Shown here one piece after another: positions 6,001-9,000 of a DNA stretch of 64,000 nt. The stretch lies in the NCBI RefSeq assembly GCF_057098645.1, contig NZ_CM169472.1, one strand, 5' to 3'. Made by a program: the position numbers. The number at the start of each line of letters is the position of its first letter. Position 1 is the first letter of the stretch.

Positions 6001-9000
6001 ATTACCAGGCGGGAAAACGATCGGTGCGATTACTGATTTCCTTATGAAAAACGGTTGAGTGTTTGCCGCGTCCTGGAGTTCCTTACTTAACCCCAGGACT
6101 TTTTTTTATGCCGAGAATAATCGAATTACGCCAGCAGAAAACCGCCATTAAAAATCAGATGCGCGACATGCTGGAGAACGCGGAAAAAGAAAACCGCAGC
6201 CTTAACGATGCAGAGGGCGCAAAATTTGACGAATTACGCGCTAAAGCTGAATCCCTCGATAAAGACATTTCCCGCCTTGAAGCCATTGCAGACGAAGAGC
6301 GCAGCAAGCCAGGTAAAAGCAGTCAGACCACTGACCCCGCAGAACTCCGCAACTACATTCTGACAGGTGAAACCCGCGCATTAAGTACAGGCGTTCCCGC
6401 TGATGGTGGTTATACCGTTATCCCTGAACTGAACACCGAAATCATGCGAATGCTGGCGGATGAATCCACCATGCGCCGCATCTGTACCGTGAAGAAAATC
6501 AGCAGCAACGAGTTTAAGCAGCTTGTTTCCGCTGGCGGTGCGACCGTTAACCACGGTGAAGAGGGTAAGGCACGCGAACAGACCAGCACCCCGCAGATTA
6601 ACGAGGTGAGCATCAAGCTGTATCCGGTCTATGCGTACCCGCGCACCACACAGGAAATCGTGGATTTTTCCGATGTGGACATCCTTTCATGGCTGACGGG
6701 TGAGATTGGCGACACCTTCACGGAAACCGAAGAAAGCGATCTGGTTGTGGGCGACGGTGACAAAAAAGCAAAAGGTTTTTTATCCGTACCCCGTGCAGAG
6801 AAGAACGACAAAGAGCGTGATTTTGGTACGTTGCAGGTAATTAAACCTTCCGAATCTCTGGCGTGGACATCTGCGGACCCGCTGATCGACCTGAAATTTG
6901 CATTACGTAAAAAATACCGCAAAAACGCGGTCTGGGTGGTTAACTCCACGACGGCGGCAAAACTTCAGAAGGTGAAGAACGCGAACGGTGATTATATCTG
7001 GCGCGACCGTTTACAGGCGGGTGATCCTGATACGTTGCTGGGCCTTCCGGTCGAATATCTGGAGTTTATGCCTGATAACGTTATTGCCCTGGGTGACTTC
7101 AAACGCGGTTACTACATTGTTGATCACGAAACAGGTGTTCGCACCAGACCGGACAACCTGACAGAACCAGGATTCATCAAAATTTTCACGCAAAAATATT
7201 TAGGCGGTGGCGTGGTGGATTCGAACGCGATCAAGATTCTGGAACTGCCGGAAGACGACGATTAACAGCATACAGAAGGGGCTTAAAAGCCCCTTTAGTG
7301 TTTTATGGGTGAAAAAATTATGAAGAGTATGGAAATCCGGTCATCGGAAATCACCACCAGCGCCAGCAACACGCTTACAGGCTACGTTGTTCGCTGGGAT
7401 AACCTTTCTGATCTGCTATGGGGTGAGTTTTACGAAAAATTCCAGCGGGGAGCGTTTACTGAATGGCTTGCGGCGGGTAATGACGTTCGCGGCCTGTATG
7501 AGCATGACCACAGCATGTTACTGGGGCGCACCCGTTCCGGCACGCTGAAACTGGAAGAGGACGAAACAGGGTTACGCTTTGAACTGACCCCACCGGATAC
7601 CAGTACAGGGCGCGACGTTATCGAACTGGTTAAGCGTGGGGACATCTCGGGGATGAGCTTTGGCTTTCGCTCCCGTAAGGATGTATGGGATACCACAACA
7701 GATCCATGCGTGCGCACCGTGCTGGTGGCGGAACTGTACGAAATTACCGTTACATCGGTACCGGCTTACCCCGATTCCGGCGTGGAGCTGGCCCGCCGTT
7801 CCCTGTATGAGCAGCACCCCGAAAAAATGCCGCGTGCGGATAATCGCCGCTGGTGGGCGGATTTAGCGGGGGTGTGATATGTGGCCTTTCAGAAGAAAAA
7901 AAGAGCAGCGCAGCATGACGCTTGATGAGTTTATGGCGCTGGCTGGCACATCGAACACGGGGGCGGGTGAGTACGTATCATCGGGGACAGCGGAATCACT
8001 GCCCGCCGTCATGAACGCCGTCACGGTCATCTCTGAGGCGGTGGCTACCATGCCGTGTTACCTGTACCTGGTACGCAATGAGAAGGGGAAGGAGGCCCGA
8101 GAGTGGCTTGATTCTCATCCGGTCGATCACATCCTCAACGAGCGCCCGAACGCGTGGCAGACTCCCTACCAGTTTAAGCGAATGATGATCCGCCACTGCC
8201 TGTTAAACGGTAATGCTTATGCGGTGATTCAGTGGGGGCGTGATGGTTTTCCGGTGGCTTTACATCCTTACCCGCCGCAGTCGGTGAACGTGGAGCAGAC
8301 AGGCGAACACAACTGGCGCTACTGCATCACTGACGCCTACACCGGAAACACCCGCAACTATTTACCGTGGGAGGTTCTCCACCTTCGTTACTCCACGGAT
8401 GACGGTTTTATGGGGCGCTCACCTGTAACCATCTGCCGCGAATCGCTGGGGCTTGGGCTGGCCCAACAACGCCACGGCGCGAGCGTGATGCGTGATGGCA
8501 TGATGGCGGCAGGGGTTATCACGTCAGGCGAATGGCTGGACGGCGTGAAGGGCAAACAGGCATTAGCCGCACTGGAACGCTACAAAGGGGCCAGAAACGC
8601 CGGAAAAACGCCCATCCTTGAAGGGGGTATGAGCTATCAGCAGCTGGGCATGAGTAATCAGGATGCTGAATGGCTGGCCTCCCGTCGCTTCACCATTGAA
8701 GACATCGCCCGAATGTTCAACGTCTCGCCGATTTTTTTGCAGGAATACAGCAACAGCACCTACAGCAATTTCAGCGAGGCAAGCCGCGCATTTCTCACCA
8801 TGACGATGCGCCCGTGGCTGGCGAACTTTGAGCAGCAGATAAAAAACGCCCTGCTGGTGGCCTCGCCTGTACCTGGTATCCGGTATCAGGTGGAGTTTGA
8901 CAGCGCGGACCTGTTACGGGCCACACCTGGCGAACGCTTTGCCACCTATGAACGCGGCATCAAATCCGGCGTTATGTGCCCGAACGAAGCCCGCGAACGT

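What the first reader, a model, noticed from the sequence alone, without database searches (positions are those of the whole stretch)
7276..7304. Intrinsic terminator between the capsid and protease genes
A GC hairpin plus T-run sits between two genes of one operon, with the capsid gene upstream. This is a plausible partial terminator that raises capsid transcript abundance relative to downstream genes.
Basis: seen in the sequence. Interest (0 to 1): 0.3.

Follow-up and report, generated by a model that had tools for sequence, protein, structure and literature searches.

The report
Leaky terminator after satellite capsid gene
A conserved RNA hairpin with a short U-run sits just after the capsid gene of a phage satellite (a capsid-forming PICI) in E. 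coli; it is most likely a leaky transcription stop that yields more capsid message than message for the downstream assembly genes, an ordinary device already annotated in phage HK97.

Summary
A 9-bp hairpin (7275-7296, GAAGGGGCU-UAAA-AGCCCCUUU, about -14 kcal/mol) followed by UUUAGUGUUUU lies in the 54-nt gap between an HK97-type capsid gene (6108-7265) and the prohead protease gene. The element is not a phage. It is a capsid-forming PICI closely related to EcCIEDL933 (CP-933C/Sp7).

Among 84 related loci there are 36 distinct junction sequences, and 33 of them keep a hairpin plus T-tract at this spot. The stems differ between lineages, including some compensatory changes and two unrelated stem classes. 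Such hairpins are about 80-fold denser at this junction than elsewhere in the same loci.

The downstream genes are essential for transfer and have no room for a promoter of their own, so any termination must be partial. The hairpin begins only 4-12 nt after the stop codon, a spacing known to weaken termination in E. coli.

HK97's own annotation lists a "putative terminator" of the same design right after its major head gene. phiX174 has measured leaky terminators after its capsid genes.

No transcript data exist, because the operon is silent in published EDL933 RNA-seq. Verdict: a plausible, conserved, ordinary internal terminator or mRNA stabiliser. It is a new member of a known kind and of low interest.

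The parts
6108..7265 (+). Major capsid protein gene (HK97 fold family), first gene of the cf-PICI packaging operon
   Evidence: PF05065 E=1.6e-61. Same start as the RefSeq annotation in EDL933. M1 is invariant in alignment A1.
7275..7296 (+). Terminator-like RNA hairpin: 5' arm 7275-7283, loop 7284-7287 (UAAA), 3' arm 7288-7296; GC core 7278-7293
   Evidence: -13.8 kcal/mol. Conserved as a structure in 33 of 36 distinct junction sequences.
7294..7304 (+). U-rich tract TTTAGTGTTTT; its first three T can also pair with GAA 7275-7277
   Evidence: tail score -4.11, 5 T in the first 8. 3-4 T directly after the GC core in nearly all relatives.
7307..7312 (+). Shine-Dalgarno-like GGGTGA for the protease gene
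   Evidence: Read from the sequence. An SD-like GGAG, GGGA or GAGG sits 5-8 nt before the conserved ATG in relatives.
7320..7877 (+). Prohead serine protease gene (S78). The likely true start is ATG 7320; RefSeq uses the equivalent of 7305 in EDL933.
   Evidence: PF04586 E=6.6e-48. In the L013 type an extra A between the two ATGs puts the upstream one out of frame. The L014 type has no upstream ATG.
7879..12448 (+). Rest of the packaging operon: portal, head closure, connector, HNH, TerS, TerL. Expression depends on readthrough of the hairpin.
   Evidence: Pfam hits. Gaps or overlaps of at most 1 nt except between HNH and TerS. No other terminator-like hairpin on the + strand until 13025.
5826..5850 (+). 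Terminator-like hairpin AGCCGGAGCAATCCGGCT plus TTTTTGT after the PerC-family gene, at the left edge of the conserved packaging module
   Evidence: -12.0 kcal/mol, tail score -5.0. Homology with EDL933 begins at about 5822.
6070..6107 (+). Leader hairpin GTCCTGG-A-GTT / AAC-C-CCAGGAC followed by T8, abutting the capsid ATG (context, function unknown)
   Evidence: -12.7 kcal/mol, tail score -5.9. Present in all E. coli-type loci, with stem variants in L016 and L092.

Best explanation
The hairpin and U-tract at 7275-7304 form a leaky intrinsic (Rho-independent) terminator inside the packaging operon of a capsid-forming PICI, directly after its first gene, the major capsid gene. A fraction of RNA polymerases stop in the U-tract. 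This gives a short capsid-only mRNA whose 3' hairpin also protects it from 3'-exonucleases. The remaining polymerases read through into protease, portal, adaptor, HNH and terminase genes. The result is more capsid message than downstream message, matching the need for hundreds of capsid subunits against about 12 portal subunits and catalytic amounts of terminase. Leakiness is built in by the interrupted U-tract and by the short distance (4-12 nt) from the capsid stop codon, which lets a terminating ribosome hinder hairpin folding. Shown: the structure, its position, its conservation and its enrichment. Inferred: that it terminates, how much, and the stoichiometric purpose.
For: The hairpin and tail are real and improbable by chance. 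In 84 related loci there are 36 distinct junction sequences, and 33 keep a hairpin directly followed by 3-4 T. The stems are GGGGCU/AGCCCC, GGGGC/GCCCC, CGGGGC/GCCCCG, GGGGU/ACCCC, GGGGU/GCCCC, GGGUG/CACCC, GCGUUCCUG/CAGGAGCGC and GGGCGUUCCUG/CAGGAGCGCUC, plus imperfect long stems, with variable loops (UAAA, AAAA, UUCG, GGUG, UAUAU and others) and diverged flanks. The series C-G to U.G to U-A at the innermost core pair (L091, L085) and U-A to C-G in the long class (L055 against L056) are compensatory changes. The T-tract is kept even where the 5' flank cannot pair with it (L002, L004), which points to a U-tract function rather than stem extension only. Density of such hairpins is 16.2 per kb at the junction against 0.20 per kb in 150 kb of the same loci. 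It is the only such hairpin inside the operon in the window. There is no room for a promoter between the hairpin and the protease start, and no promoter-like site on the + strand in 6000-7900. Every packaging gene of EcCIEDL933 is needed for transfer, so readthrough must occur. Moving a stop codon from 28 to 5 bp before lambda tR2 lowered termination from about 90% to under 10% in E. coli (PMC4824070). Phage HK97's GenBank record annotates a 'putative terminator' of the same design 6 nt after its major head gene, with an almost equal tail score (-4.17 against -4.11). Distant HK97-type capsid genes in Nitrosospira, Bartonella and Rhodovulum are also followed by hairpin plus T-run, although the next gene differs. 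phiX174 T_J, T_F and T_G each block 20-40% of transcription. Internal terminators with lower U content set ABC-importer stoichiometry (PMC9045158).
Against: There is no transcript evidence. The capsid, protease and portal genes are all at RPKM 0-4 in 11 conditions in EDL933, and no RNA-seq after helper induction was found. The U-tract is interrupted. The close stop codon could make termination negligible when the capsid gene is translated, which would leave only a stabilising role. Three lineages (L079, L086, L087) have no hairpin and a 21-nt spacer, so it is dispensable. Covariation is modest: most short stems share GGGG/CCCC. A formal pair count failed because of alignment register problems. 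A stronger terminator-like hairpin with U8 sits immediately before the capsid ATG. That raises the possibility that the whole operon is read by termination-resistant polymerase.
Confidence: 0.6

Rival explanations
1. Pure mRNA stabiliser or processing barrier. The hairpin terminates little or no transcription. After endonucleolytic cleavage of the polycistronic RNA, or at the rare termination events, it blocks 3'-to-5' exonucleases so the capsid segment outlives the rest. This raises the capsid mRNA level post-transcriptionally.
For: The stop codon lies 4-12 nt from the stem, which predicts strong ribosomal repression of termination. Terminator hairpins are known to stabilise upstream mRNA (PMC10204088; PMC11696848, listed). 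The hairpin always follows the gene for the most abundant protein, whichever gene comes next.
Against: A stabiliser needs no U-tract, yet 3-4 T directly after the GC core are kept in nearly all lineages, even where they cannot pair with the 5' flank. The two roles are not exclusive.
Confidence: 0.2
2. Efficient terminator that is overridden on induction. The hairpins at 5826, 6070 and 7275 keep the packaging genes silent against constitutive upstream transcription. After helper infection a processive antiterminator, helper- or island-encoded, lets polymerase ignore them, so the 7275 hairpin does not set stoichiometry.
For: The PerC-family gene just upstream is expressed (RPKM about 69) while the capsid gene is silent. 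A strong hairpin-U8 abuts the capsid ATG. All island genes lie on one strand. HK97-type late operons, which carry similar hairpins, are read by Q-modified polymerase (established knowledge of lambdoid phages).
Against: No antiterminator was identified. The island's AlpA is a 62-aa PF05930 HTH with no similarity to the 21Q-like P. aeruginosa AlpA antiterminator of over 140 residues. The 289-nt leader has no similarity to any phage sequence, so there is no captured qut or late promoter. The model does not explain why a hairpin follows the capsid gene specifically in so many lineages.
Confidence: 0.12
3. Translational control of the protease gene. The hairpin modulates ribosome access or re-initiation at the protease start, tuning protease dosage independently of transcription.
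For: The hairpin ends only 10-14 nt upstream of the protease SD in all lineages.
Against: Predicted folds do not sequester the SD or the start codon. The SD lies outside the stem in every lineage. Similar hairpins follow capsid genes where the next gene is unrelated.
Confidence: 0.05
4. Chance palindrome, DNA-level protein-binding site, or repeated (REP-like) element with no RNA role.
For: Palindromes can also be operators, and the GGGG/CCCC core is sequence-conserved in many lineages.
Against: It is single-copy in the window. About 0.005 are expected by chance. Stems of unrelated sequence occupy the same site. The T-tract is strand-specific, and the - strand has no T-run.
Confidence: 0.03

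Closest known systems
'Putative terminator' after the major head gene gp5 of phage HK97 (GenBank NC_002167 feature 5192-5213)
   Same: Same family of packaging genes. A GC hairpin with a tetraloop (GGGCGGG-GAAA-CCCGCCC) lies 6 nt after the capsid stop. It has a short interrupted U-tract (UUUUAACGU, tail score -4.17 against -4.11 here), and the next start codon is a few nt later, inside a long structural operon.
   Different: In HK97 the next gene is the head-tail adaptor and the capsid is the fifth gene. Here the capsid is the first gene and the protease follows. No sequence homology of the hairpins is demonstrable. HK97's late operon is read by Q-modified polymerase (established knowledge), and no such factor is known for the satellite.
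Leaky terminators T_J, T_F, T_G, T_H of phiX174
   Same: Rho-independent terminators after capsid-related genes. They reduce transcription stepwise (20-40% each for T_J, T_F, T_G) and so grade mRNA abundance (bioRxiv 10.1101/2020.03.05.979765).
   Different: Unrelated virus (Microviridae) with unrelated genes. Efficiencies were measured there and were not measured here.
Internal intrinsic terminators that set subunit stoichiometry in operons (for example after substrate-binding-protein genes of ABC importers)
   Same: A stem-loop sits directly after the first, most-needed gene of an operon. It has a lower U content than canonical terminators, terminates partially and stabilises the upstream transcript (PMC9045158).
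   Different: Different organisms (Clostridia) and gene functions. That case was validated by Northern blot, qRT-PCR and reporters.
Ribosome-repressed terminators close to stop codons (lambda tR2 position series in E. coli)
   Same: A stop codon a few nt upstream of the hairpin, which makes termination depend on how closely the ribosome follows the polymerase (PMC4824070).
   Different: That was a synthetic construct. Whether the effect applies to this hairpin has not been tested.
T7 T-phi terminator after gene 10 (major capsid), from my own knowledge
   Same: An incomplete terminator placed right after the major capsid gene, so that capsid mRNA is the most abundant late message.
   Different: It acts on T7 RNA polymerase, not host polymerase, and the phage family is unrelated.

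Membership tests
Intrinsic (Rho-independent) terminator | GC-rich stem-loop (about 5-14 bp, loop 3-8 nt) in the RNA | tested here: met
   9 bp including 5 G-C, loop UAAA, -13.8 kcal/mol.
Intrinsic (Rho-independent) terminator | U-tract of about 7-9 nt immediately 3' of the stem | tested here: inconclusive
   UUUAGUGU is 5 U of 8 with only 3 contiguous. Tail score is -4.11, against -3.1 to -5.8 for other gene-end hairpins in the window and -5.0 and -5.9 for the island's other two hairpins. This is moderate, not canonical.
Intrinsic (Rho-independent) terminator | Lies downstream of a gene on the transcribed strand; orientation-specific | tested here: met
   It lies 9-12 nt after the capsid stop on the + strand. 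The - strand version has no T-run.
Intrinsic (Rho-independent) terminator | Generates RNA 3' ends in the U-tract in vivo or in vitro | not testable with these tools
   The only transcriptome found shows the operon silent.
Intrinsic (Rho-independent) terminator | Structure, not sequence, conserved among homologous loci | tested here: met
   33 of 36 distinct junctions carry a hairpin plus T-tract, with at least 8 different stems and a few compensatory changes. Enrichment is 81-fold. Formal pair-count tools gave no usable result.
Internal partial terminator setting operon stoichiometry | Downstream genes have no promoter of their own and depend on readthrough | tested here: met
   There are 23 nt between the hairpin and the protease ATG. 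No promoter-like + strand site occurs in 6000-7900. Downstream genes are contiguous or overlapping and essential for transfer.
Internal partial terminator setting operon stoichiometry | Measured step-down in transcript level across the element | not testable with these tools
   No induced-state RNA data were found.
Capsid-forming PICI (cf-PICI), the genomic context | 10-15 kb island with int and alpA, a replication module, and its own capsid, protease, portal, adaptors, HNH, TerS and TerL, with no tail or lysis genes | tested here: met
   Pfam hits. 98.8% identity to EcCIEDL933/Sp7 over 5822-8000. The same island sits in tqsA of E. coli 14EC001 with int and the HTH gene. Criteria are from bioRxiv 10.1101/2022.09.08.507074.
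Terminator under processive antitermination (Q or P. aeruginosa AlpA type) | A Q-like antiterminator protein and its loading site at the operon promoter | tested here: not met
   The island's AlpA is a 62-aa PF05930 HTH. phmmer against the PDB finds only 8c3t_A, not the P. aeruginosa AlpA complexes. That protein has over 140 residues and a 21Q-like fold. The leader has no phage match. A helper-encoded factor cannot be excluded.
REP-like or other dispersed palindromic repeat | Multiple copies in the genome | tested here: not met
   Only the self-match was found in 64 kb at up to 3 mismatches.

The most novel reading that the evidence does not exclude
The capsid gene of this satellite is bracketed by two terminator-like hairpins: a hairpin-U8 abutting its start codon (6070-6107) and the 7275 hairpin just after its stop. 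The roughly 225-nt structured leader matches nothing in phages. The most novel reading still open is that entry into, and passage along, the cf-PICI packaging operon is governed by an as yet unknown attenuation or antitermination mechanism, helper- or island-encoded. In that reading the post-capsid hairpin acts as a ribosome-gated valve that couples the capsid:assembly-gene mRNA ratio to capsid translation.
Probability: 0.12. Interest if true: 0.55.

Novelty: new member of a known kind. Interest (0 to 1): 0.22.

Why it matters
If it works as proposed, it explains at the transcript level how a satellite that builds its own small capsids makes far more capsid subunit than protease, portal and terminase from one operon. 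It may also explain why these islands place the capsid gene first, the reverse of the phage order. That is a useful annotation for people engineering or dissecting cf-PICIs, for example when deleting or swapping genes around this junction. It does not change any general concept, because leaky terminators after major capsid genes are already known or annotated in HK97, phiX174 and T7.

Tried and rejected
1. Published transcriptomes. Landstorfer 2014 Table S4 gives capsid, protease and portal (Z1847-Z1849) RPKM 0-4 in all 11 conditions, which is uninformative. The ciprofloxacin study mentions CP-933C only as containing down-regulated genes. The cf-PICI papers contain no terminator, promoter or RNA-seq data.

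2. Formal covariation. My dot-bracket on alignment A3 was out of register, and the +2 slide gave 96% paired. Covariance model R1, built from A4, was dominated by the flanks. It missed the window-type rows and picked up reverse-strand hits. I dropped this route and tabulated stems directly.

3. AlpA as antiterminator. Rejected. The shared name is a coincidence: the island protein is a 62-aa PF05930 HTH, whereas the P. aeruginosa protein is 21Q-like with over 140 residues.

4. Captured phage late promoter or qut in the leader. No blastn match in 50,697 phage records.

5. Rfam. No family matches in 1-16000 apart from a chance-level sRNA hit elsewhere.

6. REP-like repeat. Single copy.

7. Bidirectional terminator, or terminator of an antisense transcript. 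There is no T-run on the - strand and there are no - strand genes.

8. The genome-contig scan with the single capsid protein gave only 11 loci. The profile scan of viral contigs supplied the diversity.

9. A literature search for terminators downstream of major capsid genes found no dedicated paper. HK97's annotation and the phiX174 preprint served instead.
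Full report
**What is there**

The sequence at 7275-7296 reads GAAGGGGCT-TAAA-AGCCCCTTT. That is 9 pairs, 5 of them G-C, with a tetraloop. 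It is followed by AGTGTTTT and then ATGG. Counted from the GC core (7278-7293), the tail is TTTAGTGTTTT.

- The 71-nt context folds at -18.3 kcal/mol (z = -3.1; 1 of 200 shuffles as good).
- The bare hairpin is -13.8 kcal/mol.
- The opposite strand can form the same stem but has no T-run after it.
- The hairpin is single-copy in the window.
- No Rfam family matches it.
- With one uniform criterion (perfect stem, dG <= -13, T-rich tail) only 13 such hairpins occur in 128 kb, that is 64 kb on both strands. About 0.005 would therefore be expected in this particular 54-nt gap on this strand.

The one qualification is that the U-tract is interrupted and only moderate. Its tail score is -4.11, computed with the 0.9/0.6 decay formula as I recall it from TransTermHP. 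Other gene-end hairpins in the window score -3.1 to -5.8.

**Context**

The upstream ORF (6108-7265) is an HK97-type major capsid protein (PF05065). The downstream ORF is an S78 prohead protease. Then come portal, head-closure, gp6-like connector, HNH, P27-family TerS and TerL, all on the + strand.

Further upstream are an AlpA-family HTH gene (880-1068, PF05930), a RepA-like AAA_25 protein, an SSB and a PerC-family regulator.

The region 5822-8000 is 98.8% identical to E. coli O157:H7 EDL933 and Sakai. There it is the cryptic element CP-933C / Sp7 / O-island 51, which is EcCIEDL933, the prototype capsid-forming PICI. A 99.7% identical copy in E. coli 14EC001 sits in tqsA with an integrase and the same HTH gene. 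The window's flanking mdtJ and ydgD show the same insertion site.

So this is a phage satellite, not a phage. Its gene order (capsid, protease, portal, closure, connector, HNH, TerS, TerL) differs from HK97 (TerS, TerL, portal, protease, capsid, adaptor, closure). The capsid gene comes first.

**Operon structure**

From the protease gene onward the genes touch or overlap. The only larger gap is between HNH and TerS. Between the hairpin and the protease start there are 23 nt, too few for a promoter. The consensus scan finds no promoter-like site on the + strand between 6000 and 7900.

In the island's + strand the only other hairpins with T-tails lie after the PerC-family gene (5826-5843) and after the last island gene (13025-13049). 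The cf-PICI paper reports that mutating each packaging-module gene of EcCIEDL933 abolished or severely reduced transfer. The genes downstream of the hairpin must therefore be expressed by readthrough.

**Comparative evidence**

A genome scan with the capsid protein found cf-PICI-like loci in Citrobacter, Erwinia and Gilliamella (66-69% capsid identity), plus distant HK97-type capsids. A profile scan of viral contigs added 80 loci.

In 84 loci with capsid followed by protease there are 36 distinct junction sequences. Thirty-three of them have a hairpin a few nt after the stop codon, directly followed by 3-4 T.

- The stems differ: GGGGCU/AGCCCC, GGGGC/GCCCC, CGGGGC/GCCCCG, GGGGU/ACCCC, GGGGU/GCCCC, GGGUG/CACCC, GGGG/CCCC extended by A-U pairs, and an unrelated long class (GCGUUCCUG/CAGGAGCGC and variants).
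- Loops and flanks vary freely.
- C-G to U.G to U-A at the innermost core pair (consensus, L091, L085) and U-A to C-G in the long class (L055 against L056) are compensatory changes.
- The T-tract is kept even where the 5' flank cannot pair with it (L002, L004). This argues that the U's are selected for their own sake.
- Under one automated criterion, 29 of 36 junctions score, against 30 hits in 149.7 kb of the capsid genes and everything downstream in the same loci. That is 16.2 against 0.20 per kb, an 81-fold enrichment.
- Three loci (L079, L086, L087) have no hairpin and only a 21-nt spacer, so the element is dispensable.
- Distant HK97-type capsid genes in Nitrosospira, Bartonella and Rhodovulum are also followed by hairpin plus T-run although the next gene differs. 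Two Bacillota loci have none.

My attempts at a formal pair count failed for technical reasons. The covariation claim therefore rests on the direct tabulation and is modest.

**Why partial**

Readthrough is required, as shown above, and two sequence features predict leakiness.

1. The U-tract is interrupted. The family median tail score is -4.1, range -2.7 to -5.5.
2. The GC core starts only 4-7 nt after the stop codon in most lineages. In the window it starts 12 nt after the stop, or 9 nt counting the extended stem.

In E. coli, termination at lambda tR2 fell from about 90% to under 10% when the stop codon was moved from 28 to 5 bp upstream. Full efficiency needed more than about 27-30 nt, because the terminating ribosome hinders hairpin folding (PMC4824070).

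Termination here may thus be weak and sensitive to how closely ribosomes follow the polymerase. Sequence alone cannot separate it from a purely stabilising role of the 3' hairpin.

**What is known**

- HK97's GenBank record annotates putative terminators inside its late operon. One lies directly after the major head gene gp5 (5192-5213: GGGCGGG-GAAA-CCCGCCC, then UUUUAACGU). It is 6 nt after the stop and 5 nt before the next ATG, and its tail score is -4.17. That is the same architecture as here.
- phiX174's T_J, T_F and T_G, which include the terminator after the major capsid gene F, each block 20-40% of transcription and so grade mRNA levels.
- Internal terminators with U-poor tails after the first gene of ABC-importer operons set subunit stoichiometry.
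- T7's T-phi after gene 10 is a further textbook case (my own knowledge).

The device is therefore known. What is new is only its documentation in cf-PICIs, where the capsid gene has moved to first position and is still followed by such a hairpin, as it is in HK97.

**Rivals**

The main rival is a stabiliser with negligible termination. It is compatible with the ribosome-proximity argument, but it does not need the conserved U-tract.

A second rival is an efficient terminator overridden by processive antitermination after induction. This gains some weight from a side observation. A hairpin with U8 (6070-6107, -12.7 kcal/mol, tail score -5.9) abuts the capsid ATG and contains the only SD-like AGGA in its 3' arm. 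In addition, the PerC-family gene upstream is expressed while the capsid gene is silent in uninduced EDL933.

I found no antiterminator, however. The island's AlpA is a 62-aa PF05930 HTH, unrelated to the 21Q-like P. aeruginosa AlpA. The leader has no similarity to any phage sequence.

Translational control of the protease, and chance or a DNA-level palindrome, are unlikely.

**Verdict**

The finding is real and its interpretation is reasonable, but it is ordinary. It is most likely a leaky intrinsic terminator and mRNA-stabilising hairpin after the capsid gene of a cf-PICI, and a new member of a known kind. Direct transcript mapping after helper induction is the decisive missing test.

Noticed in passing
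window 6070-6107: A second terminator-like hairpin (GTCCTGG-A-GTT / AAC-C-CCAGGAC, -12.7 kcal/mol) is followed by T8 and then directly by the capsid ATG (6108). The only SD-like AGGA lies in its 3' arm. It is present in all E. coli-type loci, with stem variants that keep pairing (L016: CC to TT; L092: a different inner stem). It could be a leader attenuator or an operator. How transcription and translation get past it is unexplained.
   Followed up: partly
window 5968-6017: An 18-nt inverted repeat (TTTTCCCGCCTGTTAATG / CATTACCAGGCGGGAAAA, 94% complementary, 14 nt apart) lies in the roughly 225-nt leader between the post-PerC hairpin and the capsid gene. The whole leader has no match in 50,697 phage records.
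   Followed up: no
window 5826-5850: A terminator-like hairpin plus TTTTTGT sits right after the PerC-family gene, exactly where homology to EDL933 begins (about 5822). The conserved packaging module thus seems to start with an insulating terminator. In EDL933 RNA-seq the PerC-like gene has RPKM about 69 and the capsid gene about 2.
   Followed up: partly
window 7305-7322: The protease start is probably ATG 7320 (SD GGGTGA at 7307-7312), not 7305 as in the RefSeq annotation of EDL933. In nine loci (L013 type) an extra A between the two ATGs puts the upstream one out of frame. In the L014 type the upstream ATG is absent.
   Followed up: yes
L002, L003, L053-L078, L064, L070: 50 nt upstream of the capsid ATG: Other cf-PICI lineages lack the E. 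coli-type leader hairpin. They share a conserved palindrome CTGGTTTCACGTCTTAACATTTTATTGTTTACGGAAACC ending 5-6 nt before the capsid ATG. It is preceded by a long hairpin plus T-rich run (GACCGTTTAA...TTAAACGGTC TTCTTCTTTTT). This may be an operator, a promoter or a leader structure.
   Followed up: partly
L079, L086, L087 (capsid-protease junction): Three related loci have no hairpin at all. The capsid stop is TGA and a 21-nt spacer holds just an SD (TGATAATCTGGGAGTTTATCGATG). They are natural 'deletion' variants useful for comparison.
   Followed up: partly
window 7300-7322 and L094 (HK97) 8413-8437: The stretch after the hairpin, TTTTATGGGTGAAAAAATTATG, closely resembles HK97's TTTTTTTTATGGGTGAAAATATG between the gp15 moron terminator and the tape-measure gene. 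This may be a shared translation-initiation motif or a coincidence.
   Followed up: no
window 6108-12448 compared with L094 (HK97) 50-5883: The satellite's gene order (capsid, protease, portal, closure, connector, HNH, TerS, TerL) runs roughly from most-needed to least-needed product. It reverses the phage order within the portal-protease-capsid and adaptor-closure blocks.
   Followed up: no
window 880-1068: The PICI 'AlpA' (62 aa, PF05930) shares only its name with the P. aeruginosa AlpA processive antiterminator (over 140 residues, 21Q-like fold). There is no detectable similarity. The name should not be used to infer antitermination in PICIs.
   Followed up: yes
window 10158-10447: This is the only other sizeable non-coding gap in the operon, between HNH and TerS. 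RefSeq annotates a 60-aa ORF in part of it. It is presumably where the cos site lies in this HNH-dependent packaging system. Not examined.
   Followed up: no
window 12989-13056: Two adjacent palindromes lie after the last island gene (12989-13026, and 13027-13056 with a TTTGGG tail). They may be the operon-end terminator and/or island-end structures.
   Followed up: no
L095 15278-15975 (E. coli 14EC001): The closest relative of this island (99.7%) carries an IS1A insertion between the portal and head-closure genes, so that copy is probably inactive.
   Followed up: no
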